64,000 nt of DNA from Stegostoma tigrinum. Lineage: Eukaryota. The notes beneath the pieces are model-generated. The model saw only the letters and a list, made by a program, of their open reading frames with translations. It did not search any database and had not been told where the DNA came from. The position numbers and the translations under genes were made by a program. Shown in pieces: positions 17,061 to 61,565 of this stretch; the stretch's first letter is position 1, and every line of letters starts with the position of its first letter. The DNA is taken from the NCBI RefSeq assembly GCF_030684315.1, contig NC_081386.1, positions 10,549,914-10,613,913 of the forward strand. The letters run 5' to 3'.

Positions 17061-17262
17061 CTGCGAAGGTAATAGGAACTGCAGATGCTGGAGAGTCTGA
17101 GATAACAAGGCGTGAAGCTGGATGAACACAGCAGGCCAAGCAGCATCTTGGGAGCAGAAAAGCTGGGGTCTAGGCCCGAAACATCAGCTTTCCTGCTCCT
17201 TAAGATGATGCCTGGCCTGCTGTGTTCATCTGGCTCCACACCTTGTTACCTCTGTGAAGGTA
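17061..17262. mobile_element. Penelope-derived foldback mini-element with TSD
   Basis: Inverted gctggatgaacacagcaggcc arms; TSD ctg(c/t)gaaggta at 17061-17071 and 17252-17262. Confidence 0.8.
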
Positions 17263-17897
17263 GCTTTTGTTGAAACTTCTTCAAGTTGTGAGGTGTTTAA
17301 AGTTCATTAAATAAATGTGGAAGATGGGTCACTGGACCTGAAATGTGAACTGACGTCTCTGATGCTGCCAGACTTGCTGAGGTTTTCATGCAATTTCTGT
17401 TTTTGTTTCAGGAAATAAATGGTTTGGATTTAGAACTAGCAAGTGACCTATTGATTGTATAACAAGTGGCAATGTATATACCCCTTGTTAATGTTGATGT
17501 GAAAAGTATGACTGTGGCTTCATCCTTTTCCATGAAATCTGTGATGGGAAATGTTGTCAAAATTTCCGAAATTGTGTCATGGAATAGCAGTGACAAAAAG
17601 AACCTCGGTGCATCTTAAAGAAATTTTCAAAGGGATTAATTTTGATGGCTTCTAATGTACCTTGAGAACAGGAAATGAAATTAGAACCAGAATTAGGTTT
17701 TTATTGTCATGTGTATTCAAGTACAGGGATACAAGAGTGCAGTGAAAAGTTAACAATGTTGCCATTCCCAGTGCTATCTTAGGTAATAGGTATAAAACCT
17801 TCAGTTCTAAAAGTTAAAAAAAAGAAGTAAGTTAAAAGCTCAGTTCTTGGCAGTATAAAGTAAATAAAAAGCAAAGTTTAAAAATCCTAATTAAGGC

Positions 17898-18553
17898 ATC
17901 ATGGGCTTTGATAATGAAATGTGAGGCTGGATGAACACAGCAGGCCCAGCAGCTTCTCAGGAGCACAAAAGCTGACGTTTCGGGCCTAGACCCTTCATCA
18001 GAGAGGGGGATGGGGTGAGTGTTCTGGAATAAATAGGGAGAGAGGGGAAGGCGGACCGAAGATGGAGAGAAAAGAAGATAGGTGGAGAGGAGGGTATAGG
18101 TGGGGAGGTAGGGAGGGGATAGGTCAGTCCAGGGAAGACGGACAGGTCAAGGAGGTGGGATGAGGTTAGTAGGTAGGAGATGGAGGTGCGGCTTGGGGTG
18201 GGAGGAAGGGATGGGTGAGAGGAAGAACAGGTTAGGGAGGCAGAGACAGGTTGGACTGGTTTTGGGGTGCAGTGGGGGGAGGGACAAACTGGGCTGGTTT
18301 TTGGATGCGGTGGGGGAAGGGGAGATTTTGAAGATGGTGAAGTCCACATTGTTACCATTGGGCTGCAGAGTTCCCAAGCGGAATATGAATTGCTGTTCCT
18401 GCAACCTTCAGGTGGCATGATTGTAGCACTGCAGGTCAGCAACATCAGCTTTTGTGCTCCTGAGATGCTGCTGGGCCTGCTGTGTTCATCCAGCCTCACA
18501 TTTCATTATCTTGGATTCTCCAGCATCTGCAGTTCCCATTATCATGGGCTTTG
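17898..18553 (-). mobile_element. Penelope-like (Neptune-type) 3' fragment with inverted terminal arm and 13-bp TSD
   Basis: QEQQFIFRLGTLQPNGNNVDF (GIY-YIG C-terminus); inverted arms; TSD atcatgggctttg at 17898-17910 and 18541-18553. Confidence 0.9.
17972..18001 (-). ncRNA. Minimal type I hammerhead ribozyme motif (intact core)
   Basis: Minus strand reads CUGAUGA-A-GGGU(CUAG)GCCC-GAA-ACGU-C-AG. Confidence 0.65.
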
Positions 18554-19984
18554 CTTTGCTTTGAACCAACCAAATTTAGCTGCCGATCAAAGCCTGGTAG
18601 GAGAAAGTGCCACTGGCAAATAATCAGCTCTGCAATCTTGCACCTCATACAATGCAGGATGGAAGTCAAGGAATTCCATAACATGGCCCCTGTTCACCCA
18701 GTACAAATCATCGGCTTAAATTTCTACATTTATAAGCTTAACAAGGTGAATAATAATAATTCATTGTAATTTGTGATGACAGTATGCTTACTGGTTTCTA
18801 AAGAGTCTTTCCTTGATTTGAATGATTTTGATGTTTTGATTGCAAAGTTTTAATGCAACATTATTCAGTTTTCATTGTGATCTTTATATGATTAATATAT
18901 TTGAACATGTGGCACTATCTGTTGAAAATTATATGACAGAGTTGGCCTCCTGGAAGGTGTTTTTCTTTACAATCTCACATTCATATTGTAAGAACTGTCT
19001 TCAGTAAAAATAAATGATTGAGACCATTCTGATAACTAACAGAGTGGTTGTCATTTTGGAAGATGCTTCTATTCAGTATTTTCATAGTTTAACATTTAAT
19101 TCCCATTGCCACCAGCATCAGCATTTAATAATTAATTGTACTTAATGCTTCACTATAGCAGACAGATCATTGTTTGATGTATCACAATTGGGTGATCAAT
19201 TAAAAATCAATTGAAACCGTTCTGTTCACTTTATTTTCTGCCACTTATTCATTTCCTCTTTCCTGCTTCTGAAGGGAGAATTTGTGGTTGTTTGACTTCA
19301 CTAGTTCAGCTGATTTGGAAGTACATTCCTGAAAAAAAACTTTGCATAAATTGGTTTGTAGCCAAAGTAGCTGTAATAATGAAAAGTACAGGACAATAAG
19401 TGTGAGAAGCTACTTTTGCATTGCTTAATTTGCAATTCTCAGCAAGGTAAATCACTAGAACGTCAAGTGTGATCATGCAAACTAAACTGTGGAACAGTAA
19501 ATGAGCCATTTAATCTTTGGTAATGGATAAAGTCTTTGGTGCTAGACAGTACTAGAATTTTAAAGGTTTTCTTTCTGAGGCATGAGCTGTGTTTCAGATT
19601 TTTGGAAAATTAATTAAAGAGGTACTTATGGCATTAACATGTTATGGTCATTTTACCAAATGTGTAATATGTGTAGCTCAGAGTAGGATTGGAATGCATG
19701 TAATCATCATCTTGTAAAAAGAAAGGCAATTGCATCTACATTTGAAATTTCATGTTTTGAGCATGTCCTATAATTTTTCACAATGAATGCAACATTTTTT
19801 GAAGTACTACCACTTCTGTTATAAAGACAAATTTGTGGAAAGTCAGATCCCAGGAATAAATAAAGCATATTTCGAAGTAACTCAAGGACTGAATGCAAGT
19901 CGAGTAGAATGCTTGGTTCTCCAACAGTACTGTAAGACCTTGTACCTGAAAATGCCTTTGCTTTTACATCCTACCCAAAAGATA

Positions 19985-20500
19985 TCTTGTACGGGCATGA
20001 CACAACAGAGCCAATAGGCTGGAGGAACCGCACCTCAATTTTTGCTTGGGAACTTGACAGCCTTATAGACTCAATACAGAGTTCAACAACTTTAGGGCTT
20101 GAGCTTCTCCCAGGTCCTTACTTTAACCCCCACACATCAGACCTTGTTATCACATAGTCTGCCATTAGACACAACCTATTGTTAACCACTAACAGTCCCC
20201 ATTAATAACTATTCATCTTCCTGGCCTGATCATTATCCACTCCTTTGTCTGTCCAATTGTTCTCTATTTTTGGTCTCTATCCCTATCTATCATTTAATCC
20301 TTAACCTCTACACCTATCCTTGCTTCTGCACACAAAAACAACATTTTCCTAGCCCCATCAGTTCTGAGGAAGGGTCACTGGACCCAAAACGCTAACTCTG
20401 ATTTCTCTCCACAGGTACTGCCAGACCTGCTGAGCTTTTCCAGCAATTTCTGATTTTGTTTCTGATTTCCAGCATCTGTAGTTGTTTGGGTTTTTATTTT
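19985..20500 (+). mobile_element. Penelope-like 3' fragment with terminal repeat
   Basis: RLEEPHLNFCLGT*QPYRLNTEFNNFRA*; terminal ctgaggaagggtcactggacccaaaacg hammerhead-like motif. Confidence 0.75.
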
Positions 20501-20589
20501 GGTAGAGTCAATAGGAGTCTTCCCTTCTGGTTGGACAGAGCTGTGTCTCACCACTTGTCAGGATGCCCAGCTGATTTTTATTTTAATTA

Positions 20590-20915
20590 CTTTTGGGATG
20601 TTGTTATCACTGGCTACGCCAACATTTTTTGCCAATTTAATCGCCCTGACAGCAGTTAAGAATCATCTACGTTGTCGTTGATCTGGATTTACATGGAGGC
20701 CTAACCATACAAGGATGGCAGATTTCCTTCCCTGTTATTGAACCTGATGGGTTCTTTACAACAACTGACAGTGGTTACATGGTTGCAATTGGGCTAGTTT
20801 CTGATTTCCGAATTTAATTGAATTTAAAACTCCCCATTTATCACAGTTGGATTTGAACACATATCCCCAGAATACTTGCCTGAGGTTCTAGATTTTATAA
20901 TAACATCATTACTAT
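20590..20915 (-). mobile_element. tRNA-derived SINE (12639 family), decayed
   Basis: gggatg..ctggctacgccaacattt..aaggatggcagatttccttccct..ggatttgaac. Confidence 0.7.
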
Positions 20916-22766
20916 GTTGCCATCTTTCTAGCCCAATCAGGAATTTAACTAAGTGGGTACATATGACTTTTCTCGGGATCGAGGACTCCAGCTCCAACTG
21001 TCTTCCTCCTCCTCCTTGCTCACTGAGAACTGGACCCCATTTAGTGGCTGGCATCTGTGAATTGCTTAATGGTGCCACTGGGAAAGTGGTCGCTGCCAAA
21101 AACATAGTCAGCTGAAGCCAGGGTCTCTGAGGGACTAAGATTGCAAGTGAACGGGGGGGGGGGGGGGGGGGGAGCGCGGGGACATGGAGAAAGTTGGAGC
21201 AAGTGCAGGGGCATAACTTTCATAGGGTGAAGCTGCTTCTCAAGGCTGGGTCACTTGATGGGGCATTCACTGCCTCTCGATGAGGTATCATCTCTGGAAG
21301 CCTACAAACCTTCTGACAGGCTTCCAATATGGTGAATTTTCCATCCAGTAGTAATCACCCATTGGTTTTCAGGTCCTTAATTCTGTATTAATTGTCCGTT
21401 TAAGAGCCTCAATTGGTAGCAGGGCTGGGGAAGTCTTTGCCTTGGCTGCAGAGGTGGATAGTTGTGAAGACTCCACTTGCTATCCTTACCAACTTAATAA
21501 GTCACTTTCCACACACATATCTAAGGAGGCATTAAATTCCGATTTAAGTGTCAGCTTTGACCATATGATTGAGTCTAAGTTTTGAACCCAGAGCCTTTTC
21601 ACATAGAGCTAAGAGTGTTATCTCTGAGCCAAGTTGATACCAGAATGGATGCTAATGAAAAAAATGGCTCTTGTGAAAAAGATTATAGAAACATGGAAAA
21701 TTTATATTGACAGGACACCGTTCAGCCCATTATTTTGTCAGTGCTAATTTGTGAAGTGAGGATGAAGATGATGGTTTAACACAACAATATTTTATTGACT
21801 GAAGGAAAAAAAAACTGCACCCATCAACCAACTCCTGACTAGGAGAGGACATCAGCTGTCCAATAGCTCCAACAAGTAATTAATGTTGTATCATGGTATT
21901 CACAATTTACTGTGGGAATGCTATATAAATGTGGTGTGGTTATAACAAGTATACAATAGAAGATAGGAAAATGTAATATTTTGCTTTATTCTAATTTTCA
22001 TTGCATGAACAAAGATATGAACATGTTATGACAGTGGTTTTATTTTAAAGGAACCCTCCCTCAAAGATCTTACATAATGGTCATTAATCATACTTTCATA
22101 TCTGCACTGCATTTTGTTCAAGTTCAGTATCCTGTTGATTGCATTCTGTTCAAACTCAAACTTTCAGTGAACTTTTCAGTTTCAACTTAAATTTATGCTC
22201 CACGTGTGGTCTGGAGTGCACAGAGAGCTAATGTTAAAGTAAGAATTATAGTGGTATGTTATATTGATCTGTGTTCCAACGCTTTAAACTTTGAAGTGCA
22301 AAAGATGTCTCATTTTGTAAATAAGTTGCACGACCACATTGAAAATGCATTTTTTAATCTATATGTAAAAAAACAAACGTTTGTGTGAAACATGAAATTT
22401 ATAATATTACTAGATAGAGGGTTTGCTGTATCATCTGATTTATTTTCCATATTCCACAACAAATTTTAATAGTTGGTGTAACTTTTCCTACTGCCCACAA
22501 ATTGCGTCACCCAATGGCACAGAGAACTGGGTCATTTGAAGCACAGCAGGATGTCATTGAGCTCAATGTGCTCGGACTAGTATTATCATTCTAGTTGGTG
22601 CTGTTGACTCTAACTGTACGTTCAACAGCTCAAACCTGTTCCACCATTCAATTAGTTCATGACTGATCTGTGCATCAATTCCATTTAACTACCATTTGAC
22701 CCACATTTTTTTGTTCCTATACCTAACAAAAATCTATTAATCTCTGTTGTAAAAATTTCTTGCAAA

Positions 22767-22977
22767 CAGATATTTATCCAGAAATCGCTGGAAAAGCTCA
22801 GCAGGCTTGGCAGGATCTGTGAAGAGAAATCAGAATTAGTCCTTCTGCACCTGAAATGTTGGCACTGATTTCTCTTCACCGATCCTGCCAGATCTGCTAA
22901 GCTTTTCCAGCAAAATGTTTTTGTTTCTGATTTACAGTTTCTGCAGTTCTATTAGTTTTTATTCAGATATTTATCCA
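22767..22977. mobile_element. Penelope-derived foldback mini-element with 14-bp TSD
   Basis: Arms gctggaaaagctcagcagg / ctgctaagcttttccagc; TSD cagatatttatcca at 22767-22780 and 22964-22977. Confidence 0.85.
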
Positions 22978-23246
22978 ACTATCTTTGAAACCATCCTATC
23001 AGCTATCTCATAAGTATTCAAAAATGTTTTTCAATAAGCAATTAGACTTTGCTTTGTATAACGAATTTGTTGTAGTTCAGAAAATAGAAGATAGCTATGA
23101 TTGTTTTAAAAGATAGATTGCTCCTGAAAGGGAGAACTGACATCAGGGTAAGCTCCATGATCAGGATATAAATGTCTGTCTCTGAGAGGAGATAAACCCT
23201 TCCAGTTTCATGTTCAATGCTAAGTTAAACAGTAAAACGTACTCAC

Positions 23247-23334
23247 TTTCAAGTCTAGCCCAAAGTCTCTGAGAGACCCTGATGTAATTCAGATGTAACA
23301 TAATAGCTATCAAGTATAATGTAGTCAACCTTCT
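23247..23334 (-). CDS. Possible 88-nt exon (unverified)
   Basis: Minus strand ctctgtctttctaaacag|AGAAGG...TTGAAA|gtgagt; one open frame RRLTTLYLIAIMLHLNYIRVSQRLWARLE. Confidence 0.2.
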
Positions 23335-23437
23335 CTGTTTAGAAAGACAGAGCCTCTGTGCTGTCAAAGACTTGGTGTGAACATTGTTCCTTACTTTTTG
23401 TATCAATATATTGGACAACTACCAATAAGATGGATCG

Positions 23438-23655
23438 ATAGATTCCCTGCAGTGTGGAAACAGGCCCTTCAGCCCAACAAGTCCACACAACCTGTTGAAG
23501 CATCCCATCCAGAACCATCCCCCTATAACCCACACACCCCTGAACGCTACAGGCAATTTAGCATGGCCAATCCACCTAGCTTGCACGTCTTTGGGCTGTG
23601 GGAAGAAACTGGAGCACCCGGAGGAAACCCATGCAGACACAGGGAGAATGTGCCT
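23438..23655 (-). mobile_element. HE1-like V-SINE, 5'-truncated
   Basis: cagtgtggaaacaggcccttcagcccaacaagtcc..gcaatttagcatggccaatccacc..gaggaaacccatgcagacacagggagaatgtgc. Confidence 0.9.
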
Positions 23656-24599
23656 AAGGTTTTAATCTGCTTTCTCTTCTCTCAGAACTACTGTATATTT
23701 TTGTGTTTGCATATGTATGTCTGCACATCTATGTGAAACTGTGGAAGGTGTCATTGGGGAGAATGGGTGAGATAATATGTCAACTTTACTCCATACCAGA
23801 ATAGGGGAGACTCAATTGCTAGTATTTTTATGCCCTTGTTTTACATTCATGCACTCTATTGTAATAAAGCTGTGTGTAAGACGATCTCTTCATTTTGTCT
23901 TTTGTAATTTGACCTTTTGCCTTTCATTGTTCTACGACTGAGTGTTTGCCTATTTACTAACCTGCAGGACCACGCTTCTGTAGTTTACCTTCTGACATGT
24001 TTTAAAAACTTCAATGAGATCAATCTTTTGCTTTCCATGAAAAAAACCTTTCAGAGATTTTATATTCAGAAACGTTTTCTGAAGAAAGATCTAGGCCCAA
24101 GACGTCAGCTTTAATGCTCCTCTGAAGCTGCTTGCCTTGCTGTGTTCATCCAGCTCTACACCTTGTTATCTCTTTAAGAGACCTTCTCTATAACCATAAT
24201 CTTTTATTCCTGATATCAATTGAGTGTGTATTTGTTTTGAGTTACCTACAGTTCCAGAACGCCTCATATAATGGGCTACCTAAAATGGTCCAGCAGGAAC
24301 CTAACCAATATCCTGAACAAATCTAAATCTCATCTCTAAAAGCCACATTTAATCAGTAGCAAAAGTGTATCAATGCATATTCCTGACTGTATTTAATCCT
24401 GTCTGCTTTCCAATACGTCGGTGTATTATGGCAAGGTATATTTAACTAGCATTCTGAAGCAAAGGATGAAGAATTGAGATAAAGTATGACTTATGACCTG
24501 ATACAAATACAATTACAAATAAATTCAACTGGTGAAATGATGAAAAAAACTCAAAGAAACACTCGTAAAATCAACTATATTCATCTGAAGTTTTTTTTA

Positions 24600-24945
24600 T
24601 GTATTACCAGAGTTACTGGCTAGGCAAGCATTGTCACCCCCTTGAGCTGTGTAGCTTGTAGGCCATAGGGTAGTCAAGGATCAACCACATTGCTGTTGGT
24701 CTGGAATCACAACCAGGTGAGGGTGACAGTTTGTTTCTACTAAAGAAAATTACTGAAACAGTTAGATTCAACAATCAATAGTGGTTTCATGGCCACCATT
24801 AGACATTTAACTGTAGATTTTCTCCAAAAAATTGCATTCAAATTCCACCATTTAACTTGGTAGCATTTGAACCTGGGTTCCCAGAATATTACCTGGGTGT
24901 CTAACTTACCAGCTTAACAGCAATACCACTACACCATTACCTCAT
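24600..24945 (-). mobile_element. tRNA-derived SINE (12639 family), decayed
   Basis: ctggctaggcaagcatt..caaccacattgctgttggtctggaatcac..atttgaacctgggttcccagaatattacctggg. Confidence 0.7.
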
Positions 24946-25983
24946 TTGGATTGAATCTTGCCTAATATTGTTACATTTAATACGTGGATGATATTTCCAG
25001 GCATTTAATATATCTGGTTTCAATTTCTTTTTCTAAAGGGCTAAACATTCTTTAGTGCAAGGTAGATTATTAATTTAAACAGAACCAAATTCATCCCTGA
25101 CCTCTTAAGTAGGGTTGAACAAACTTTAAGAGGGAGGGTGGGCAGATAGGAAGATTTAGACCTGTGTTGAAGAAACAGTGCACTGTTCCTTGTCAGTGTC
25201 TCAATTTATCTGCCGAACAGTCAGGAACATGTGACTGCTCTAGTCCTGAAAAGCAAACACAGGAGGACTGAGCCTGAATAATCAAAGCAGTGAAGAAATC
25301 CGAACAGATGCCAATGCTAGATCAAAGAGACTCCACAAATAAACTGGAGAATAAGTGGGAGCTCTGGGAGTTTCTCTGCACTTGCTCAAGCTGCATGAGT
25401 TGTCTGAGCTCTTGGCATGTTCAAATTAGCTGGGAGAGGGGCTCCATTTCATTGCTTCAGCTTTTTTGTTGTTTTTGTTCTAATTCCGTGTTTGAAGACA
25501 TTTCAGTATTTAAAAACAACAGCCATTTTCCAACAGCTTCTGATTTTCAAGAATAGATTCAATGAATAGACTAATCCAGGCAGAATAGATTTAGCTTCAG
25601 CTACTTGATTTCTATGGAAGTTTCAAATACAAATGATCCATTCATTCAGTAAATAATATCGCCGTGTTATTAGCTTATTAAGGTATGAGTGTGCTTCTAG
25701 AGATAAGCAGTGCATTTGAGCTTCGAATTTTTGGAAAATATATGTTTTACATATTTATTTAATGCCTTACTTTTTATATCTATTAAAAATATTTTAAAAA
25801 GTTAACATTAAACATAGTTTGAGAAACTATCTGATCAGTTTAGATAGTATAAAGAGAGAATGCAGAGATGATAAAGTCAGATTTACGGCATAGAAATAAA
25901 ACTCTTCAGCTTATCACATTCTTGCTGCTGCATTCGACGCCTGGTCTTTATCAATATAAATTATTGTTAACTAGTCAAGAATA

Positions 25984-26272
25984 ATCACAGAATCCCTACA
26001 GTATGGAAGCAGGCCATTTGGGCAATCAAGCCCACACCAAACCTCTGAAGAGCAACTCACCCAGACTCAGTTCGTCACCCTGCATTTCCCATTGGCAATC
26101 CACCGAACCTGCGCGTCTTTGTACTGTGGGAGGAAACCAGAATACCCCAAGGAAACCCACGCAGACACAGGGAGAATTTGCAAACTCCACACAGTTGCCT
26201 GAGGGTTGAATCAAACCTGGACCCCTGGCACCATGAGGCAGTGGTGCTAACCATTGAGACACTGTGCCACGC
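25984..26272 (-). mobile_element. HE1-like V-SINE
   Basis: tRNA head (gaatcaaacctggacccctggcaccatgaggcagtggtgctaacca), V-domain and CR1-like tail. Confidence 0.9.
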
Positions 26273-26649
26273 ATCTATTTAACTAATTGCAGGTATTAAA
26301 TGCAATTGCCAAATGTTATATTTGGACCCAAGTCAAAATGTTGGTGAGTAGAGATTATTATCCAATTGACGATATTTATGATGAGGTATGGGTTAATTTT
26401 GTGCCAAATAGACAATATCTACTTCAAGAAGGTCAATGAATATCAAGGTAAGAACACAAAACATTAGATTCACCAATATGGCTCTCCTAACTTGATATGT
26501 TTTGCTCCTTTGACCTTTTGAAATGAAATAAATTTGTTCTTACAACAAATTAGACACTTGAGGGGGTTTAAAATCTTTGAATGGGTTAAGTGAACGGGAA
26601 TTCTTTTTCAGTATTCAGCCAGAATGATTAAAAACTTTATTAAACAATT

Positions 26650-26909
26650 AAACCTTTATCTCTGATAACAAAGTGCAGAGCTGGATGAACATAGCAGGCG
26701 AAGCAGCATCTTAGGAGCACAAAAGCTGACATTTCGGGCCTAGACCCTTCATCAGAAAAGCTTTTCTGATGAAGGGTCTAGGCCCAAAACGTCAGCTTTT
26801 GTGCTCTTAAGATGCTGCTTGGCCTGTTATGTTCGTCCAGCCCCACACTTTGTTATCTCAGATTTTCCAGTATCTACAGTTCCCATTATCTCTGAAATCT
26901 TTATCTCTG
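26650..26909. mobile_element. Loop-less palindromic Penelope-derived mini-element with two back-to-back hammerhead motifs
   Basis: About 97-bp arms centred on gaaaag|cttttc at 26760/26761, plus an unpaired tail of about 35 nt; TSD aaa(c/t)ctttatctctg at 26650-26664 and 26895-26909. Confidence 0.9.
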
Positions 26910-27734
26910 CATGACTCCTGAGGTCTGCCCATGGTGGATATGTGTTGAGAGTCCATTTAGGTGGGATGCGAGTTGGGTGGTTGAGGTGGATTGCTTGGCA
27001 GGGCAATCAAAGGGGCATGGGTTGACATTATGGGCACATTGGGGACTAGGTGGGGAGGTGAGAAGAGAGGGTTAGTAGATCTAACGGCTTCTAAAACAAC
27101 TGAGATGAAGTCCCAGAGAACTGAGGTGAACCTAAATAAAACACTCAGTGTTCACTTACCCTGGTGGTTGGATCCATTTCTGGAACGGGCAGGCCTGACT
27201 CCATCCTTCCCCTATTTCCCAGCAGTAAAATTTGGGTATAACATAGCCCTTAAAACTGAAGTGGAAATTTCCTGATTTAGGCTATTATGTAGTGATAATC
27301 TTGCCCTAACTTGCAGAATTGCACTGAGAATTTGGGAAAGGAAATGTCATCTGTTAATTGCAGAGAAGAAACTGGAAATTAATTATTAAAATTCTATGCC
27401 AAAAAATGCTGATTTCTCTTTGGAGACTCAGTTTTGACACTATTTTGAAAATCTGCTTTGCACCAAAGCAAAATAGGTTTTGTCAGAACAATGCAATGTG
27501 CCTGGTTCCTCAAACATTATCTTCAGCCTTTCACTAGGCCCTTTACTTCAAAAAAAACTACCCATGAGTAAAATCTTCAAATCAAGTGTGATACTTTTAT
27601 TAAACTCATTGAGTGTTAGTGCTGCTAACTGACTTTGCCCTGTATTTTGAATGAATTGTTCCAACTTTTCCTGAGGCTGACATCTTATCTTTGATTGTTC
27701 CTACATCTATTATTGTATTGAAGGCTAACAACAC

Positions 27735-27852
27735 AGAAAAGCATGTTTCTGATGAAGGGTCTAGGCCTGAAACGTCAACTTTTGTGCTCCTAAGATACTG
27801 CTTGGCCTGCTATGTTCATCCAGCTCCACACTTTGTTATTTTAGAAAAGCAT
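27735..27852 (+). mobile_element. About 100-bp Penelope terminal-repeat insertion with intact hammerhead core and 10-bp TSD
   Basis: CTGATGAAGGGTCTAGGCCTGAAACGTC at 27749-27776; TSD agaaaagcat at 27735-27744 and 27843-27852. Confidence 0.8.
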
Positions 27853-28129
27853 TGGCTGTCTACAAGGTCAAGTCAGCTAGTTCCATTCTCTGTATTTACC
27901 TAGTAACATTGTTTTTCTTTTCTATCTTCCAGTACTTATTGAGTTTCGATTTGAAATCCCCGATTGAATCTTCACCACAAATTGTAGCATTGAAAGTTAG
28001 AGTCCAAATCTTCATTGTATAGGTATCACACCACCTTTAGTTCTTTTGACAATCATGTGGAATCTGTTTCTCTTGTTTACAATATCCCATCAAAGTTAAT
28101 GTCTTTTCTGTCATAGATATTTACATTTT

Positions 28130-28897
28130 GGAGTAGATCTGTAGCTCAGGTTGTGGGTGTTGATGTTGTTTGGCTCGCTGAGCCGGTTTGTTGTTTAGCA
28201 GACATTTTATTACCGTGCTGGGTAACATCCTCAGTGCAGCCTCCGATGAAGCGTCGGTCTGTTTTCCCACCTGGTTTTTAAACTCTGGGGTCTGTTACGA
28301 TGGATTGCCTCACTTCGGGGTTTCCTCCGGAGTGGAATGTATATGGGGTCGAGTTCAATGTGTTTATTAATAGCATGCTTCGTGGAGTGCCATGCGCCCA
28401 GGAATTCTCGTAATTGTCTCTGCCTAACCTGTCCCAGGATCTGGGTGTTGTCCAAGTTGAAGTCGTGGCTCTCCTTGTCCATGTTTCCTTCCTGTTCTTC
28501 CCCTAACAACAAGAGTACATTAACACCAACTGGCTACAAAAAGACACAACCAATACTCACTCATCTCAATCCACATGGACAAGGATAGCCATCACTTTGA
28601 CTGGGACAACACCCAGAACCTGAGTCAGGCTAGGCAGAGACAAGCATGAGAATTCCTGGAAGCATGGCACTCCACGAAGCATGTTATTAATAAACACATT
28701 GAACTCGACCCCATATACATTCCACTATTGAGGAAACCCGGAAGTGAGGCCATCCACCGCAATGAACCCCAGAGTTTAAAAATCAGATGGGAAAACACAC
28801 CAACGCTTCATCAGAGGCTGCACTGAGAATGTTACCAAGCACCATAACAAAATGTCTGCGAAACAACAAACCAGTTTAGCGAGCCAACCAACCTCAA
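28130..28897. mobile_element. Penelope-like (Poseidon-type) foldback fragment
   Basis: Arms at about 28160-28484 and 28573-28897; they encode HDFNLDNTQILGQVRQRQLREFLGAWHSTKHAINKHIELDPIYIPL (GIY-YIG C-terminus). Confidence 0.9.
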
Positions 28898-29646
28898 TGG
28901 ATATCTAAACGCCCCATGATTTTGATAAGTTCTATGGAACCTTCTCCTCAACTCTCTTTCTCCAAGGGTAACATTATCCCTCAACTTATTCTGCAACTCA
29001 AGTCTCACATCGTATTAGTGAATCTGTTCTGCACCAACTCTAAAGCCTTCCAATCTTTCCAAAAGCATAGCGTTGAGAATTGGACACCAGCTCAGGTGAG
29101 GTCAAAACAGTATTCTTAAAAAAAAAGTTCTTCAAAATTTACTTTCTATTCTACTCTATGCTTCAAATTTTTAAAACTATACATTTTTTTCAACCAATCT
29201 TCCAATTTGCCCTGCAAGTTTTAATACTTTGTGCTGCCACGAGATCCCGTTGTTCACACATCCCTTTCAGACATGTACCATTGCCTTTTCTTACGGTCCC
29301 CACCAAATCTATCCATTCACATTTGTCGGCAATATATTTCATTTCCCTGTGTCAGCCCATCCAGCCAGTCTATGTTCTTTTGAACTTCACTTTTGCGCTC
29401 AATTCACTCTTTCAGTTTGAGTACTGCAAGCCAGTTAAAAAGAAACAAGCACATATGAACGCCTACAAACCACAAATCTCAAAAATTGTCCGTTCACCTG
29501 TCAACATCATGCTACTCCTGCAACCCAATTATGTCAAGTTATTGGCTTATCACTAACAATTCAGTTTAATCTTTTATAATCACATAAAAGATTTGCATAA
29601 CCTTTTATTTGTATTTAGCCATTTTTCATTCACCTCTTATTTCCAG

Positions 29647-29844
29647 TCTGTGTCTATGTATGAGACAATAAGGTGTAGAGCTGGATGACCACAGCAGGCC
29701 AAGCAGCATCAGAGGAGCAGGAAGGCTGACGTTTCAGGCCTAGGCCCTTCTTCAGAAATTTCTGCTGTGTTCATCCAGCTCTACACCTTGTTATCTCAGA
29801 TTGTCCAGCATCTGCAGTTCCTACTATCTCTGTGTCTATGTATG
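29647..29844. mobile_element. Penelope-derived foldback mini-element with perfect 16-bp TSD and intact hammerhead core
   Basis: TSD tctgtgtctatgtatg at 29647-29662 and 29829-29844; minus-strand CTGAAGAAGGGCCTAGGCCTGAAACGTC at 29728-29755. Confidence 0.9.
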
Positions 29845-30310
29845 GTTTAGGTACTCCTTCCTGTGTGTTGTAATTAACAACTGCTTCTTTCTTAATTCAA
29901 GGAAGCGCGGTTGAACTGGCTACTTTTAAATGCCATTTCATTTTGGGTTTGGGAGAAAAGCATCTGCAAGGGATCCTTTTGAAATTATTGCAATCATTCA
30001 AGGGATGTGTTAGTAAAGAAAGGGAACCAGTTCATCCTGCCTCACCCAGACACAGAACAGTTTGGGATATTGCACTGGAACTGTTATGAATTTGGGAACA
30101 TTACCTTGAATTTGGTTGTAACAGTAAGCCAATCTAAAAAGGTTGATTGAGACAGATCTGAGACTAATGTGCTCTTGATAATCTCTGCACAATATAATTT
30201 CTTCTATATATAATCTGTAAATAACAATAATGATGTAATAAATTTCCTATTGTTTATTCAAAAGGCTCGTCAGTTAGAACCAGAAAGGTTGCTATCTTCA
30301 TCCTTAGGCT

Positions 30311-30603: not shown

Positions 30604-30634
30604 GTTGACACACTATTCTTCAGCCTTCTTTGAA

Positions 30635-32458: not shown

Positions 32459-32735
32459 ATTATAGAATCCCTACAGTGTGGAAACAGGACCTTCGGCCCA
32501 ACAAGTCCAGCAAGAACCCATTCCCCCTAATCCTTGAACACTCTGGGCAATTTAGCATGGCCAATCCACCTAGCCTGCACCTCTTTGGACTGTGGGAGCA
32601 AACCAGAGGAAACCCACACAGACGCAAGGAGAATGTTCAAGCTCCACACAGATGGTCGCCCGAGGGTAGAATCAAACCTGGGTCCCCAGTGCTGTGAGGC
32701 AGCAGTGTTAGCCACTGAGCCACTGTGCTGCCCCG
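32459..32735 (-). mobile_element. HE1-like V-SINE, inserted in a CR1 3' tail
   Basis: Same diagnostic blocks as the other HE1-like copies. Confidence 0.9.
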
Positions 32736-33289: not shown

Positions 33290-34282
33290 GCTGGGAGGCC
33301 GCGCAGCATCCGAGGAGCAGGAAAGTTGATGTTTTGTGTTGGAAGCCCCCAGTCTTCACATGTCACTCCACCAACGTCTGCATCCAATGTATCATTCTCT
33401 GCCACTTCCGCCACCCACAACCTGACCCCACAATCAAAGAGATATTTCCCTCCCCCAGCCCCTATCTGCCTTTCATAGGGATCACTCTCTCTGCGACTCC
33501 TTTGTCTGCTCCATGCTCTGCACTTATCCCACCACCGCAAGGCACCTTTCCTTGCAACAGCAGTAAGTGCTACACGTGCCCATACATCTGACCACCACAC
33601 CCCCCACACCCTACCTCACCTCCATCTAAGGCCATAAACAAACCTTACAAATCAGACAGGAGTTCACCTGCACATCTGTCAACTTGGTCGACTGTATCCG
33701 CTGCTCCCGATGTGGCCTCCTCTACATCGGTGAGACCAAGCATTGACACAGAGACCATTTTGTTGAGCATCTGGGCTTTGTACACAACAAACGGCAACAC
33801 CTTCCAGTCGCCAACCATTTTAACTTCCCCTCCCACTCTCTGGATGACATGTCCATCCTCCAGTGTGACAATGATGCCACACACAAACTGGAGGAGCAGC
33901 ATCTCATATTCCGCCTCAGGACCCTACAGCCTGATGGCCTAAACATGGAATTCGCTGATTTTAAAATCTCCCCACCCCTGGCCTCATCCCATGTCCAACC
34001 CTCCCTCTCATCCCCACCTCCTTGACCTGACACTACCTGCCCTTTTTCTTCCCTACCTATCCGGCCTACCCTTCCTGCTGATCGATCCTCGCCAGCCCCT
34101 ACCTTCACCCACCGATCACCACGCCACTTACCTTTCCCTAGTGCCATGCATCCTCCCTCCCACCTCCTTGATCCGACATAACCTGTCCATCTTCTCTCCC
34201 ACCTATCCACCCTGGCCTTCCCACTGACCAATCCCCACCCCTCCCTACCTGCACTCACCTATCACCATCCTGCCTACCTTCA
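33290..34282 (+). mobile_element. Penelope-like (Neptune-type) fragment: Cys linker, GIY-YIG endonuclease and pyrimidine-rich 3' region
   Basis: GTFPCNSSKCYTCPYI; FTCTSVNLVDCIRCSRCGLLYIGETK; LEEQHLIFRLRTLQPDGLNMEF. Confidence 0.9.
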
Positions 34283-41606: not shown

Positions 41607-44600
41607 GTTTTCAAAAAGATTTATAGCTTGGGTTGTGGATGAGGTTCTAGACATGCTTGAGGTGATTGGTTTGGTGGCAAACATTTCATCATGCTGCCAG
41701 GTAACATCATCAGTACAGCTCTGGTAAAGTGTTGGTGTTCTGTCCTGCTTGTTATTTATATACCTACGTTTGTTGGAGTGTTTGGTATCACTTCCAGTTC
41801 TGTTTCTCAGCGGTTTGTACACAGGGTCGAATTCAATGTGTTTGTTGATGGAGTTTTGGTTAGAATACCAGGCCTCCAGGATTTCCCTGGTGTGTCTCTG
41901 GATTGTGTAATTATGCAGGTGTTGTTCCTGTCAAATTTGTGTATCTCGTTGTCTGTGTGTAATGTGACAAGTGAGAATTGGATGTGTCTCTTGGTGGCTA
42001 GCTGGTATTTGTGTGTCTATATTGTCAGTTTTCTCCCAGTTTGGCCAATGTAGTGTTTCTCACAGTCCTTGGATGATATTTTGTATATTACGCCGGTTTT
42101 GCTGGCTTTGGGTATGGGGTCCTTTGTATTCATCAGAAGCTGTCGTAGGGTGGTTGTTGGTTTGTGGGCTACCCTAATACCTAGGGGTCTGATAGCCTTG
42201 TGTTTAGCTCTGAAATGTCCTTGATGTATGGTAGGGTGATTAATGAATCTGGTCATGTTGTGTCTTCCTATTGGAGTCTATCTTGGAGGTAATAGCATAT
42301 TATGCTTTTCGGGTATCCATACCTTTCCCTTATACTTCCCGCACAAATTCTCAGAAAGCAGATACTATCTCAAAGCTTAAAATATAAACCATCTATCAAC
42401 AATCCACAGGCACGGAGAACAGCTGTACAGAACAGCTGTACAGAAAGGGTTATGATCAGCGGTGCCCACAACTGCTTCCACGAATACGAGTGTAAAATTG
42501 TGTGCCAAAAAATCCCTGTATTCTAACACAAGTGACCAGGATTGGACATCCACAGTGGAACGAGCTATCAACATATAACAACAAAAGACTAGAACAAATA
42601 AAAGAAAAGCTCTGCAAGAAAAGCTGTCTAAGATCACCCACATCAATGACATGGACAACAAAAGATTCATGGACTAAAAACATCTCAGACTGACCACTTA
42701 CAAACACTGACAGGACCGTCGTAGTATGCAGACTGAATTATAACTACGGAGACGCCAAAAAAACTGACTTCTTGGCTGCTCTGGAATCAACAGTAAAGAG
42801 CAACGAACTCCCAAAAGAAGTACAGCAGACTATCAGACAGACAATCATCCCACCACTGAGTAAAAGAAGTAAGTGGAACACATTTGACGCAGAAAAAAGG
42901 AAAGCTCTGGAAGGACTCGACAAAGGCAGGAACATTTTAATCTTATCAGCAGATGAAGGACACACGACAGTCGTTCTTAAGAAAGCTCATTACACCGAGA
43001 AAGCTAACACACTACTAGCGGTTACTGGCACTTACCAACAGATGGCCATAGACCCAACACCTAAGTTAGGAAACTGGATCAAAATGACCCTGAAGAAATT
43101 ACGCAACTCACGAGACATCAACAAGACAGATTGTCAAAAAAAAAGCTGTAGGGATCCAACACACCATGCTTCTACAGACTCCCCAAAGTATACAAACTGG
43201 GCGGCGGGTGGGGGGGGGGGGGGGGCGCTCAGACCCCTTGTCTGACTGCCAAGTACATCAACATATAGACTTATCAAATAACAAACAGAAATTGAAATAC
43301 TTGTTTGACAACACTACTCACTCCATCCACTCATCCCAAGAATTCCTCAACATCATCAAAAATACCAGGATAGTAGAGGACAAGATGATGATATCCTTTG
43401 ACTATTTATGCCCATAAACATTGACCTTGCCAAAGAAACAATTGCCACATTGCTGGACAAATCAGGAAGGCAGGAACCCCAGGGCACCAACAGCTTCAAT
43501 AAGGACACCACCATGAATCTTCTAGATCTGTGCCTCTCAATGCACTTCACCTTCAACTTCAGCATATACAAACAAATCAACAGAAAACCATTGGGGATCT
43601 CCAGTATGAGGACTGATTGCAAAAGCAGTATTGCACAGGTTAGCATGAACAGCACTCCCCATTATACAACCCAAACTTTGGGTCTGATATGTAAATGACA
43701 CTTCCATGATTATCAAATGCACAAACCAGAAGAAACCCACCAACACATAAACAACATTCTCACTGGGATAAAGTTCTCAAAAGAAGAAAAGAACAATAAC
43801 CAACTATCTTTCCTGGACATAATAGTAGGAAGCATAACCAACAGGGAACTCCTGTTAGTTCTAGTGACTAGTGTATACAGAAAGGATCAGATAGTCAATT
43901 ACAACAGCAACCCCTTCAAATCCCACAAATGGAGCTGCATCAGGACACTATTTAGATGAGCCACAACACATTGCAGTGACCTGGAGCCACACAGAGCAGA
44001 ACAGGAACACTTGTACAGAGTCTTTGAAAGGAATGGATACTCGAAAAGTACAATCCGCCATTACCTCTAAGACAGGCCTCAACAGGAAGACACAACACAA
44101 CCAGACCCTCCCTACTGGACACCAAGGACTCTTCAGAGATGATCACAAGACTACCCAGGCCCCTAGGTATCAGGATAGCTCACAAACCAAAAACCACCCT
44201 GTGACTGCTACTAACAACTGTAAAGCATCCCATACCCAAAACCAGCAAAACTGGTGTAATATACAAAATACCATGTAGGGACTGTGAGAAACACTGCACA
44301 GGCCAAACTGGAAGAAAACTGGCAATATGGATACATGAACACCAACCAGTCATCAAGATACACGACCAAATCTCTTTTCTTGCACTGCACACAGACAACG
44401 AGGGACACAAATTTGACTAGGACAACACAACCATAGTCGCACAAGCCAAACAGAGACATGCCAGGGAATTCCTACTGGCCTGATATTCTATCTGGAACTC
44501 CATCAACAAACACATTGAATTAGACCCTGTGTACAAGCCACTGAGAACAGAACCAGAAATGGTACTAAACACCCCAACAAGCTGAGGTATATAAAAAACA

Positions 44601-44745
44601 AGCGGGACAGAACACTGATGCTTCACCGGAAATGCAATGATGATATTAACTAACAGGGTGACGAAATGTTTGACACCAAACTCACCTGGCTCGATGACTA
44701 TGTCTACAACTTCATCCACAACCCGAGCTACAAAACATCTCAAAC
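41607..44745 (+). mobile_element. Near full-length decayed Penelope-like element (RT and GIY-YIG) with a roughly 710-bp inverted copy of its 3' end at the 5' side
   Basis: ILILSADEGHTTVVL, SIHSSQEFL..MMISFD, HFTFNFSIYKQ, YVND (for YVDD), QLSFLDI, SVYRK, GVIYKIPCRDCEKHCTGQTGRKL. 41607-42320 is the reverse complement of about 44032-44745. Confidence 0.93.
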
Positions 44746-44749
44746 TTTA

Positions 44750-52899: not shown

Positions 52900-54530
52900 A
52901 TGTTGGCAATAATCACTGGGCTGGTAATCAATAGAACACAGCTAATGTTCTGGGGACATGGGTTCAAATCCCACCTTGACAAGTGGTTAAATTCGAATTC
53001 AATTAAAAAGTAATCTGGAAATAAAAGTTAGCTTACTGATGACCATTTAACCATTGCTAATTGTCATAAAAACCCGTCTGGTTCCCTAATGTCCTTTCAG
53101 GAAGGAAATCAGCTGTACTTACCAAGTGTAGAGCTGGATGAACACAGCAGGCCAAGCAGCATCACAGGAGCAGGAAGGCTGACGTTCTGGGCCTAGACCC
53201 TTCTTCAGAAATGAGTAAGGGGAAGGGGGTTCTGAAATAAATAGGGAGAGAGGGGGAGGCGGATAGAAGGATAGAGGAGAAGCTAGGTGGAGAGAAGACA
53301 CACAGGTCAAAGAGGTGGGGATGGAGCCAGTCGAGATGAGTGTAGGTGGGGAGGTAGGTAGGAGTAGGTCAGTCCAGGGAGGACGGACAGGTCAAGGGGG
53401 TGGGTTGAGGTTAGTAGGTAGGAGATGGGGGTGGGTCTTGGGATGGGAGGGGTCGATAGGTTAGGGAGGTGGGGGCGAGCTGGGCTGGTGTTGGGATGTG
53501 GTGGGGGGAGGGGAGATTTTGAAGCTTGTGAAATCCGCATTGATACCATTGAGCTGCAGGTTTCCCAAACAGAACATGAGATGCTGCTCCTGTAACCTTG
53601 GGGTAGTATCGTTGTGGCACAGCAGGAAGCCCAGGATGGACATGTCATCTGAAGAATGGGAGGGGGAGTTGAAATGGTTCACAACTGGGAGGTGCAGTTG
53701 TTTATTGTAAACCGATCATAGGTGTTCTGCAAAGCAGTCCCCAAGCCTCTGCTTGGTTTCCCCGATGTAGAGGAGGCCACAATGGGTACAGCGGATGCAG
53801 TATACCACGTTAACAGATGTGCAGGTGAACATGTGCTTGATGTGGAAACTCTTCATGGGGCCTGGGATGGGGGTGAGGGGGGAAGTATAGAGGCAGGTGC
53901 AGCACTTCTTGTGGTTTCAGGGAAACGTGCCGGGGGTGATGGGGCTGGAGGGGTTTGTGGAGTGGACAAGGGAGTCCCAGAGAGACTGGTCCCTCTGGAA
54001 AAGCTTCAAAATCTCGCCTTCCCCTACTGCATCCAAAAACCAGCCCAGCTCGTCCCTGCCTCACTAACCTGCCCTTCCTCCCACCTATCCCCTCCTCCCA
54101 CCCTAAGCTCCACCCCCATCTCCTACCTAATAATCTTATCCCGCTCCCTTGACTTGTCCGTCCTCCTTGGACTGACCTATCTCCTCCCTACCTCCCCACC
54201 TATACTCACCTTGACTGGCTCCATCTCCACCTCTTTGACCGGTCTGCCTCCTCTCCACCTATCTTCTCCTCTATCCATTTTCTATCTGACTCCCCTTCTC
54301 TCCCTATTTATTTCAGAATCCCCTTCCCCTCCTCCATTTCTGAAGAAGGGTCTAGGCCCAAAACGTTAGCTTTCCTGCTCCTCTGATGCTGCTGTGTTCA
54401 TCCAGTTCTACACTTTGTTATCTTAGATTCTCCAGCATCTTCAGTTCCTGCTATTTCTGTACTTACTGGATTGGCCTACACACGACTTCAGACCCACAGC
54501 AATGTGCTTAACTCTCAACTACCTGATGCA
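52900..54530 (+). mobile_element. tRNA SINE (12639 family) split by a Penelope insertion
   Basis: ...gtcctttcaggaaggaaatcagctgtacttac | ... | ctgtacttactggattggcctacacacgacttcagacccacagcaatg. Confidence 0.8.
53113..54466 (-). mobile_element. Penelope-like (Neptune-type) foldback insertion with GIY-YIG and 10-bp TSD
   Basis: Minus strand FTCTSVNVVYCIRCTHCGLLYIGETKQRLGDCFAEHL; arms at about 53123-53528 and 54001-54420; TSD ctgtacttac at 53113-53122 and 54457-54466. Confidence 0.92.
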
Positions 54531-57171: not shown

Positions 57172-57372
57172 AGAGATAACACAGTGTAGAGCTGGAGGAA
57201 CACAGCATGCCAAGCAACATCAGAGGAGCAGGAAAGTTGACGTTTTGGGGCAGGACCTTTCTTCAGAAATGAACTCTGACCTGAAACATCAACTTCCCTG
57301 CTCATCTGATGCTGCCTGGCCTGTTGTGTCCCCCCAGCTCCATACTGTGTTATCTCTGACTCCAGCATCAGA
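57172..57372. mobile_element. Penelope-derived foldback mini-element
   Basis: agagataacacagtgtagagctgg ... ccagctccatactgtgttatctct; degenerate hammerhead motif at about 57238-57268 (-). Confidence 0.8.
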
Positions 57373-59316: not shown

Positions 59317-59859
59317 CATGATTGCGTATAGTTCTGGTCACTGCATTATAAGAAGGATGTGGAAGCTTTGGAAAGGGTGCAGAGGAGATTTACCAGGATG
59401 TTGTCTGGTATGGAGGGAAGGTCTTACGAGGAAAGGCTGAGGGACTTGAGGCTGTTTTCATTAGAGAGAAGAAGGTTGAGAGGTGACTTCATTGAAACAT
59501 ATAAAATAATCAGAGGGTTAGATAGGGTGGATAGGGAAAGCCTTTTTCCTAGGATGGTGACGGCGAGCACGAGGGGGCATAGTTTTAAATAGAGGGGTGA
59601 AAGATATAGGACAGATGTCAGAGGCAGTTTCTTTACTCAGAGAGTAGTAAGGGAATGGAACGCTTTGCCTGCAACGGTAGTAGATTCGCCAACTTTAGGT
59701 ACATTTAAGGCGTCATTGGATAAGCATATGGACGTACATGGAATAGTGTGGGTTAGATGGGCTTGAGATTGGTATGACAGGTCGGCACAACATCGAGGGC
59801 TGAAGGGCCTGTACTGTGCTATAATGTTCTATGTCCTATGTTCTATGTTCTATCTTCTA
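59317..59859 (+). mobile_element. Younger CR1 3' fragment nested in the long CR1
   Basis: ORF 59359..59592 LERVQRRFTRMLSGMEGRSYEERL; (gttctat)n tail; interrupts cctgatcag|..tgccctagaactctgtgg. Confidence 0.9.
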
Positions 59860-61456
59860 GCTGTGCCCTAGAACTCTGTGGGGAGCGAGGGAAGTGATTG
59901 CTGAGCCCCTTGATGAGATATTTGTACCATTGATAGCCGCAAGTGAGGTGCTGGAAGACTGTAGTTTGGTTAATATTGTACCACTACTTAAGAATGGTGT
60001 TTCAAGAAAAGCCAGGGAAATATAGACCAGCAAGCCTGACATTGGTGGTGGGCAAGTTGCTGGAGGGAATCCTGAGAGACAGGATCTACATGCATTTGGA
60101 AAGGCAAGGACTGATTAGGGTTATTCAACATTACTTTGTGCATGGGATATCGTATCTCACTAACTTGACTGATTTTCTTTGAAGATGTAACAAAGAGGAT
60201 TGATGAGGGCAGAGTGGTTTACGTGATCTATATGGACTTCAGAAAGGCGTTAGACAAGGCTCCCCACGCTAGCTTGGTTGGCAAGGTTAGACCATGGAGG
60301 AAAGTTAGACTACAGAGAATAGAGGGAGAACTAGCTATTTGGATCTTGAGCTGGCGGGAAGATAGAGGGTGATTGTGGGGAGTTGCTTTTCAGACTGGAA
60401 GCCAGGGCCCAGTGGTGTGCCACAAGGATTGTTGCTGGGTCCACTGCATTTAGTCATTTAGCCATGACTCATGTCATTTTTAGTCATTATAAATGATTTG
60501 GATGTGAAAACAGGAGGTATGGTTAGTAAGTTTGAAGAAGACACCAAAATTGGAGATGTATTGGACAGTGAAGAAAGTTACCGCAGGGTACAATGGGATT
60601 GTGGTGGGCCAATGGGCCCAGGAGTGGCAGATGGAGTCTAATTTAGATAAACGTAAGGTGCTTTATTTTGGAAAGACACATCAGGGCAGGACTTACACAC
60701 TTTTTAGTAAGGTCTTGGGGACTGTTGTTGAAAAAGAAACCTTGGAGTGCAAGTTCATAGTTCCTTGAAAGTGGGGTCACAGGTAGATAAGATGGTGAAG
60801 AAGGTGTTTGGTATGCTTGCCTTTATTTGTCAGTGCTTTGAGTATAAGAGTTGGGGGGCCATATTGTGGCTGTACAGGACATTGGTTAGACCCCTAATGG
60901 AGTACTGCATGCAGTTCTAACAAGTTCCTGCTATGGGAAAGACACTCTGAAACTTGAAAGGGCACCAAAAGGATTGAGAAGGAAGGTGCCAGTGTTGGAG
61001 TGTTTGAGCTGTGGGAAAGGCTGAATAGACCAGGGCTATTTTCTCAAGAGTGTCAGTGACTAAAGGGTGACATTATAGAGGTTTATAAAATCATGAGGGG
61101 CATGGAAAAATTAAATAACCAAGGTCTTTTCCCTGGAGTGGGGGGGTCCAAAAGTAGAGGGCATAGGTTTAAAGTAAGAGGGGAAAGATTTAAAAGGGAC
61201 CTCAGGGACAACTTCTTTATGCAGAGAGTGGTGTGTGTGGAGTGACCTGCCAGAAGAAGTGGTGGAGGCTGCTACAATTATAAAGGAACCTGGATGGGTA
61301 TATGAAGAGGAAGGGTTTAGAGGGAGGTGGACCAAATGCTGGCAAATAGGTCTAGATTAATTTCGGATACCTGGCTATCATGGACAAGTTTGTTCAAGAG
61401 TCTGTTTCTGTGCTGTCTATCTCCATGAATTTATGACTCTATATACTGAGGTACAG

Positions 61457-61565
61457 TGGAAGGTGATAACACAGTGTGGAACTGGAGGAGCACAACAGGC
61501 CAGGCAGCGTCAGAGGAGCAGGAAAGTTGATGTTTTGGTTTGTGACCCTTCTGCTTTGGAAGGTG
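61457..61565. mobile_element. 91-bp Penelope terminal fragment with 9-bp TSD
   Basis: TSD tggaaggtg at 61457-61465 and 61557-61565. Confidence 0.8.

What the first reader, a model, noticed from the sequence alone, without database searches (positions are those of the whole stretch)
17061..61565. Tiny non-coding Penelope-derived insertions, each with its own long TSD
Seen: eight insertions are bounded by direct repeats: 17061-17262 (11 bp), 17898-18553 (13), 22767-22977 (14), 26650-26909 (15), 27735-27852 (10), 29647-29844 (16), 53113-54466 (10) and 61457-61565 (9). Six are only about 90-230 bp and non-coding. Most are foldbacks in which one arm extends 30-40 nt beyond the other (ggattctccagcatctgcagttcc.att). 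Known: PLEs have pseudo-LTRs, can be inverted, and carry a short 3' tail. Inference: variable-length TSDs show these arrived as such by retrotransposition, so they are neither erosion products nor DNA-transposon MITEs. The centres differ between copies, suggesting the foldback is made anew at each integration. At about one per 8 kb this could be a large, under-described component of the genome.
Basis: partly seen in the sequence, partly recalled or inferred. Interest (0 to 1): 0.7.

Follow-up and report, generated by a model that had tools for sequence, protein, structure and literature searches.

The report
Run-off stubs of Penelope retroelements
These tiny mirror-image inserts are real, very common end pieces of ordinary Penelope-type jumping genes, each flanked by its own duplication of host DNA, and they likely arise when both cut DNA strands prime copying of one RNA and the copies run off the RNA's start, which would explain a long-known but unexplained shape of these elements.

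Summary
All eight direct repeats are present: six exact, two with one mismatch. Seven inserts belong to a Neptune/Nematis-type Penelope-like element (PLE), one to a sister family. The layout (inverted pLTR, one-sided tail, 8-10 bp TSD) is published, so this is not a new element class. In an unselected 1.09 Mb sample, 55 of 73 two-arm inserts have a TSD, against 2 of 400 shuffled pairs. In 61 of 64, one arm has the tail and the other lacks it; either arm can be the longer; arm lengths are coupled. Inner ends pile up 29-31 nt behind a TATA-like box in three families, not at the ribozyme cut. A polar centre in a third family faces the tail both ways (17:21), so foldbacks are built anew, not copied from one master. 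Best reading: dead-end double-primed copies running off the transcript's 5' end; the start site and empty sites were not observed. Short copies of the main family are about 1.6% of sampled bases. This scan reported the same structures, twin priming and run-off before, in this and other genomes.

The parts
17061..17262 (.). Family A foldback: tailed arm on - (17067-17165, template -1..+98 relative to the hammerhead cut) joined to tail-less arm on + (17166-17252, -20..+66); 11-bp TSD with one mismatch
17898..18553 (.). Family A foldback: long tail-less arm on - (17910-~18435, back to -424, includes 3' UTR and the end of the GIY-YIG coding region) plus short tailed arm on + (~18433-18543); exact 13-bp TSD
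18029..18035 (-). TATA-like box (TATTTAT) 62 nt upstream of the hammerhead cut, in the long arm; promoter function inferred
   Evidence: position computed from the printed alignment
22767..22977 (.). Family B (sister PLE family) foldback: tail-less arm on - (~22781-22839), tailed arm on + (to ~22963), decayed hammerhead; exact 14-bp TSD
26650..26909 (.). Family A foldback with both arms ending at -31 (putative RNA start), 4-nt centre; tail on the + arm; 15-bp TSD with one mismatch
27735..27852 (+). Family A single tail-less arm (27746-27845) starting at about -31; exact 10-bp TSD
29647..29844 (.). Family A foldback: tail-less arm on - ending at -31, short tailed arm on + starting at +30; exact 16-bp TSD
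53113..54466 (.). Family A long foldback: tail-less arm on - back to -799 (decayed GIY-YIG coding sequence), tailed arm on + from -324; exact 10-bp TSD
54305..54311 (+). TATA-like box (TATTTAT) upstream of the hammerhead core in the tailed arm
61457..61565 (-). Older family A single tail-less arm (61465-61551); exact 9-bp TSD
57173..57369 (.).
24066..24173 (+). Further family A single arm starting near -31; no convincing TSD

Best explanation
The inserts are TSD-flanked end pieces of endonuclease-bearing Penelope-like retroelements, likely dead-end products made when the two staggered cuts in the target each prime reverse transcription of the same RNA, one at the inner and one at the outer internal start site, and the two copies are joined head to head. 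Shown by sequence: parentage, TSDs, two fixed outer ends 36 nt apart, one tailed plus one tail-less arm, coupled arm lengths, a sharp inner limit 29-31 nt behind a TATA-like box. Inferred: when the protein binds the pLTR copy at the 5' end of the transcript, both cDNAs run off the RNA start after about 95 and 131 nt, giving the ~200-230 bp foldbacks; if only one cDNA is kept, a single arm results. When it binds a downstream pLTR copy, both arms can be long. The joint is likely made by end joining (short overlaps or inserted letters). The stubs lack the TATA-like box and the ORF and would not spread further.
For: Parent: RT, CX4CxxC linker and GIY-YIG in long copies (Pfam RVT_1 E 0.004 and GIY-YIG E 0.03, both below the curated cut-off). 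TSDs: 55 of 73 vs 2 of 400. Tail asymmetry: 61 of 64 classifiable, 32 expected, p 2e-15. Tail-less arm longer by >15 nt in 19, tailed arm in 11, within 15 nt in 31 of 61. Length coupling [[47,1],[2,11]], p 2e-9, present in each of three subfamilies (p 0.03, 5e-4, 0.003); arms agree in subfamily in 45 of 47, 16.5 expected. Single arms end at either site, 55 and 62 of 171. Inner limit vs TATA-like box: family A box at -62/-63 in 51 of 57 long arms, ends mode -31; family B box at -63, Inr-like A at -34, 34 of 73 ends at -36..-30; family P box 29 nt before the limit in 37 of 39 long arms, the limit lying 17 nt upstream of the ribozyme core there against 3-4 nt in A and B (counted). Family P: 153 loci joined exactly at the limit through a 2-bp overlap and 49 with one extra base, vs 8 joined through the 6-bp palindrome just upstream. 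The polar centre faces the tail both ways, 17 vs 21. In vitro, a PLE protein cuts and extends both strands, starts at two internal sites that bound the tail, and is predicted to be a dimer (PMC11167929).
Against: No RNA 5' end was observed: only contigs were available. No empty site was seen. The limit is smeared in family A (-29 to -39). No excess of a cap-derived G in family B (2 of 14). D. virilis Penelope has a TATA-less internal promoter (PMC2377424) and an intron that ends at the ribozyme's 5' edge (PMC4209133), so other causes of a 5' boundary exist. Self-primed palindromes followed by uneven central deletion could mimic much of the pattern. Only 14 of 63 short single arms show a TSD. 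The class limits (tailed end +86..+116; long arm beyond -60) were set after seeing the data; with the narrower first limits the count was 52 mixed vs 3 same-end pairs.
Confidence: 0.65

Rival explanations
1. Self-priming or snap-back: one cDNA (or an antisense RNA) folds back and is copied into the inverted arm; the endonuclease trims one end to remove the tail; later central deletions make the arms uneven.
For: Proposed in print from palindromes at the inverted junction (PMC3846280). Explains shared variants between arms (91% vs 85% identity), length coupling and several near-symmetric centres.
Against: A copy of the tailed strand cannot be longer than it, yet the tail-less arm is longer by >100 nt in 8 inserts and the tailed arm in 2. 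Tail-less single arms are as common as tailed ones. In family P the 6-bp palindrome that a fold-back would favour is used in 8 loci vs 153 (CpG-decayed forms of the 8-class not counted).
Confidence: 0.2
2. The inner limit is a reverse-transcriptase pause at the ribozyme fold or the C-rich tract, or a splice boundary, not the RNA start; double priming still holds.
For: In families A and B the limit lies 3-4 nt from the ribozyme core. AG dinucleotides after pyrimidine tracts lie near the limit in B and P. D. virilis has an intron ending there (PMC4209133).
Against: Independent pausing would give many long-plus-short pairs; 3 of 61 were seen. In family P the limit is 17 nt from the core but keeps the distance to the TATA-like box. 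No fixed upstream exon appears in centres.
Confidence: 0.1
3. A non-autonomous palindromic mini-element with a fixed centre that is amplified as a unit (SINE-, MITE- or retrozyme-like).
For: In family P 153 loci share one centre and 49 another, nearly all about 224 bp.
Against: Family A: 57 of 57 junction types distinct. Family P: the polar centre faces the tail both ways, 17 vs 21 of 43 matches examined; two masters of opposite polarity would be needed. Single arms start at the same limit. Variable 8-19 bp TSDs exclude a DDE MITE.
Confidence: 0.05

Closest known systems
Insertion unit of EN+ Penelope-like elements (PMC8557442 and PMC3846280, passages read; PMC8969392 passages)
   Same: Heavy 5' truncation, inverted 5'-truncated copy, 30-40 bp tail at one end only, TSD of about 8-10 bp, hammerhead in the pLTR.
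   Different: Here most inserts are reduced to two ~95/131-nt stubs with a sharp inner limit. TSDs run to 19 bp (mode 14 in family A). The tail asymmetry, arm coupling and TATA-linked limit are counted here; I did not find them in the passages read.
Poseidon element of Anolis in vitro (PMC11167929, main text and part of Methods read)
   Same: Two adjacent internal RT start sites that bound the tail; both target strands cut and extended; promoter presumed in the pLTR.
   Different: The text read does not derive inverted insertions or run-off stubs from these properties. Family A is Neptune/Nematis-type, and its start sites appear to lie upstream of the likely start codon (inferred).
Minimal hammerheads of metazoan PLEs (PMC4209133, parts 1-2 of 4 read)
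   Same: Core boxes, unpaired base before helix II, palindromic helix III; pairs 100-700 bp apart on opposite strands were noted in Schistosoma.
   Different: Arm ends here do not map to the cleavage site; helix I is only 2-3 bp by inspection; cleavage not tested.
Non-LTR retrozymes (bioRxiv 10.64898/2026.07.22.740005, part 1 of 5 and passages read)
   Same: Non-coding, PLE-derived, hammerhead-bearing.
   Different: Retrozymes are head-to-tail tandem units; these are head-to-head or single, each with its own TSD.
LINE-1 twin priming (recalled, not read here)
   Same: Second target strand primes on the same RNA and yields an inversion inside a TSD.
   Different: In L1 the two pieces copy different parts of the RNA; here both arms copy the same stretch from two fixed sites 36 nt apart.

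Membership tests
EN+ Penelope-like element | Parent ORF with RT and C-terminal GIY-YIG endonuclease | tested here: met
   Long copies L068-L079 contiguous with the same end sequence show RT motifs and a GIY-YIG-like end; Pfam hits are weak, below cut-off, on decayed frames. For family B no ORF was examined.
EN+ Penelope-like element | pLTR with minimal type I hammerhead motif | tested here: met
   Core boxes and helix II in families A, B and P. Rfam has no matching model hit; the single-strand fold of one copy is not unusually stable (z 0.97). Activity not tested.
EN+ Penelope-like element | Inverted 5'-truncated copy and 30-40 bp tail on one end | tested here: met
   61 of 64; 38 of 43 in family P.
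EN+ Penelope-like element | Variable-length TSD | tested here: met
   55 of 73 vs 2 of 400; lengths 8-19 bp; 36 of 43 in family P.
EN+ Penelope-like element | Single copy of the repeat at the empty site | tested here: inconclusive
   No contig bridged an insertion site among those listed; no relatives are served for this genome.
Neptune/Nematis clades | CX2-5CxxC motif between RT and GIY-YIG (PMC8557442) | tested here: met
   CX4CxxC in family A long copies.
Neptune/Nematis clades | Placement in an RT tree | not tested
   No tree built; Neptune versus Nematis is open.
DNA-transposon MITE | Fixed short TSD and equal terminal inverted repeats | tested here: not met
   TSD 8-19 bp; ends differ by the tail.
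Non-LTR retrozyme | Head-to-tail tandem units each with a hammerhead | tested here: not met
   The eight inserts are head-to-head or single.
Self-amplifying non-autonomous mini-element | Fixed internal junction with fixed polarity inherited from a master | tested here: not met
   57 of 57 junction types distinct in family A; polarity 17:21 in family P.

The most novel reading that the evidence does not exclude
PLEs integrate by obligate double priming: one protein-RNA complex primes both target strands at two fixed internal sites of the same RNA. Most events use the pLTR copy at the transcript's 5' end and run off its capped start, so hundreds of thousands of genomic stubs map each family's transcription start to the base and explain the inverted pLTR and one-sided tail of the whole class.
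Probability: 0.55. Interest if true: 0.65.

Novelty: new variant of a known kind. Interest (0 to 1): 0.42.

Why it matters
How PLEs make their inverted repeats and one-sided tail is an open question (PMC11167929 leaves the later steps unvalidated; PMC3846280 proposes antisense self-priming). The stubs give sharp, countable predictions that can be tested with the existing in vitro system and with 5'-end RNA sequencing. In practice they warn that such hairpins can be mis-annotated as MITEs, microRNAs (weak Rfam hits) or new ribozyme elements. As an element they are ordinary dead copies, and this scan has reported them repeatedly.

Tried and rejected
RNA start site: all 17 runs listed were contigs, so no start, end or strand could be read. 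Empty sites: laying contigs of seven distinct runs (eight lays) on 16600-30200 and 26250-28150 was swamped by repeat contigs; none listed bridged an insertion. Rfam: four weak hits below the gathering score, chance hairpins. Clustering at the hammerhead cut: rejected, 8 of 94. Cap-derived extra G: not supported in family B (2 of 14); in family P a non-genomic base at the limit is common but ambiguous with blunt joining, so it is not used as evidence. TSDs for other window copies (20362, 24066, 57172, 28160, 41620, 33296, 35368): none convincing. MITE and single-master readings rejected (see rivals). Six paper searches listed no paper that, by title, abstract start or term counts, applies twin priming or run-off at the transcription start to PLE foldbacks; 'twin priming' had 0 occurrences in the PLE papers listed. 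[quoted passage not shown]
Full report
Observation. All eight direct repeats are at the stated places. Six are exact; 17061-17262 and 26650-26909 have one mismatch. All score 8 or more on a match-minus-twice-mismatch score, against 1 of 56 mismatched end pairs and 9 of 980 random pairs. Six inserts are head-to-head foldbacks with a tail on one arm; two are single tail-less arms.

Parentage. Seven inserts match the 3' end of a ~3.5-kb element whose long copies encode an RT, a CX4CxxC linker and a GIY-YIG-like endonuclease. Pfam hits on the decayed frames are weak (RVT_1 E 0.004, GIY-YIG E 0.03). The linker marks the Neptune/Nematis clades (PMC8557442, passages); no tree was built. I call this family A. 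22767-22977 belongs to a sister family B, for which I examined no ORF. A third family P, young and with a GIY-YIG end, has older relatives in the window at 28160-28897 and 41620-44734. All three carry the minimal hammerhead core described for metazoan PLEs (PMC4209133).

Census. I took 109 stretches of 10 kb at round positions on large contigs (1.09 Mb; unselected but not strictly random). Family A covers 9.1% of it. Depth is about 250 over the pLTR end, about 30 over the endonuclease region and 2-4 near the 5' end. There are 73 two-arm inserts and 171 unpaired hits; 55 of 73 have a TSD against 2 of 400 shuffled pairs, 8-19 bp long, mode 14. Short forms are 57 foldbacks and 65 single arms, 17.7 kb or 1.6%, one per 9 kb; this extrapolates to roughly 360,000 copies. 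Only 14 of 63 scored short singles show a TSD. Family B adds 73 arms, 9.3 kb.

Two outer ends. Arms end at about +64 or +100 relative to the hammerhead cut. Of 73 two-arm inserts, 64 could be classed at both ends, and 61 pair one end of each kind (32 expected, p 2e-15). Nine were dropped because an end was eroded or ran on into the ORF. I widened the outer class after seeing chance extensions; the first limits gave 52 mixed and 3 same-end pairs. Singles use both ends, 55 and 62 of 171. These ends match in kind the two internal RT start sites that bound the tail in the Anolis element, whose protein cuts and extends both strands (PMC11167929).

Both arms come from one template but are not copies of each other. 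Arms of one insert are 91% alike against 85% between inserts, and share rare variants in 32 of 271 cases against 140 of 9141. They agree in subfamily in 45 of 47 (16.5 expected); gene conversion could add to this. Long arms pair with long arms ([[47,1],[2,11]], p 2e-9; threshold chosen after viewing), also within each subfamily. Either arm may be the longer: tail-less in 19, tailed in 11, within 15 nt in 31; by more than 100 nt, 8 and 2. Simple fold-back copying of the tailed strand cannot give a longer tail-less arm without later deletion. Junctions range from 13-nt overlaps to inserted letters, as end joining would leave.

The inner limit. Short-arm inner ends do not cluster at the ribozyme cut (8 of 94 within 5 nt) but at -37..-26 (43 of 94), and only two lie beyond -37. 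A TATA-like box starts at -62/-63 in 51 of 57 long family A arms. In family B the box is at -63, an initiator-like A at -34, and 34 of 73 ends lie at -36..-30. In family P the box starts 29 nt before the limit in 37 of 39 long arms, and the limit lies at -51, 17 nt from the ribozyme core rather than 3-4 nt. Genome-wide exact patterns gave 355 family P foldbacks with a 0-30 nt spacer and 170 with 31-61. 153 are joined at the limit by a 2-bp overlap, 49 carry one extra base, and 8 use the 6-bp palindrome just upstream (CpG-decayed forms not counted). The limit therefore follows the TATA-like box, as an RNA 5' end would. This is inference: no RNA end was seen. D. virilis Penelope is TATA-less (PMC2377424, passages), whereas a rotifer pLTR has a putative TATA and initiator (PMC3846280).

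Made anew or copied from a master. Family A has 57 distinct junction types in 57 short foldbacks. The shared centre in family P might suggest a master. The 49 loci with a polar centre allow a test: among 43 examined, the centre points to the tail-less arm in 17 and to the tailed arm in 21 (p 0.63), 5 could not be assigned, and 36 have their own TSD. One master with fixed polarity is excluded; repeated joining of two copies that end at the same base fits.

Mechanism, best reading (0.65). The protein binds a pLTR in the RNA; the two staggered target nicks prime at the two start sites; the two cDNAs are joined head to head; gap filling gives the TSD. Binding at the 5' pLTR gives run-off stubs, binding at a downstream pLTR gives long pairs. 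The stubs lack the TATA-like box and ORF and are likely dead ends. Rivals: self-priming plus central deletion (0.2), pausing or splicing as the limit (0.1), amplified mini-element (0.05).

Known and new. The layout is published (PMC8557442, PMC3846280, PMC8969392 passages), and close opposite-strand hammerhead pairs were noted in Schistosoma. Six searches listed no paper giving the double-priming or run-off account; older subscription papers, Repbase/Dfam and supplements were not seen. Earlier notes of this scan reached the same structure, twin priming and run-off in this and other genomes. I had stated the twin-priming reading before and noted the start-site test; those notes are not independent support. 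Verdict: real, a variant of a known kind, useful mainly as a record of PLE integration; interest 0.42.

Noticed in passing
window 28127-28897 and 41606-44744: Two older foldback insertions of the family P type (66-70% identity to a young copy); the second holds decayed RT and GIY-YIG sequence. No TSD found.
   Followed up: partly
window 20362-20498, 35368-35462, 17320-17409: Further family B single arms; the first starts just upstream of the initiator-like motif and carries the tail.
   Followed up: partly
window 33296-34280: Older family A-like copy with GIY-YIG coding sequence, a short inverted stub at its 5' end and a 146-bp tandem duplication in its 3' UTR.
   Followed up: no
L153:4977-6183 (also L048:~6400-6800, L007:1500-1890, L150:3150-3490): Head-to-tail ~300-nt units of pLTR, tail and the first ~110 nt of the ORF region, each with a hammerhead; in L153 an array on both strands inside one insert. 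Retrozyme-like; similar deletions recur at separate loci.
   Followed up: partly
L219-L278: Family P is young (97-100% identity among top hits); hundreds of ~224-bp foldbacks end at one base, the cleanest set for mechanism work. A non-genomic base at the limit may be a copied cap.
   Followed up: yes
window 6511-7013: Three near-identical 167-bp tandem copies (99%).
   Followed up: no
window 104-961: Decayed LINE-type reverse transcriptase fragment on the - strand (CR1-like by recall).
   Followed up: no
window 23438-23653, 25984-26269, 32459-32728, 35873-36182, 39555-39860: Several copies of an abundant ~200-300 bp SINE-like repeat, some preceded by (TAGAACA)n arrays elsewhere in the window (14153-14187).
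   Followed up: no
window 29240-29500: Unique stretch matched at about 90% by contigs of two runs of organism A, possibly an exon of a host gene.
   Followed up: no
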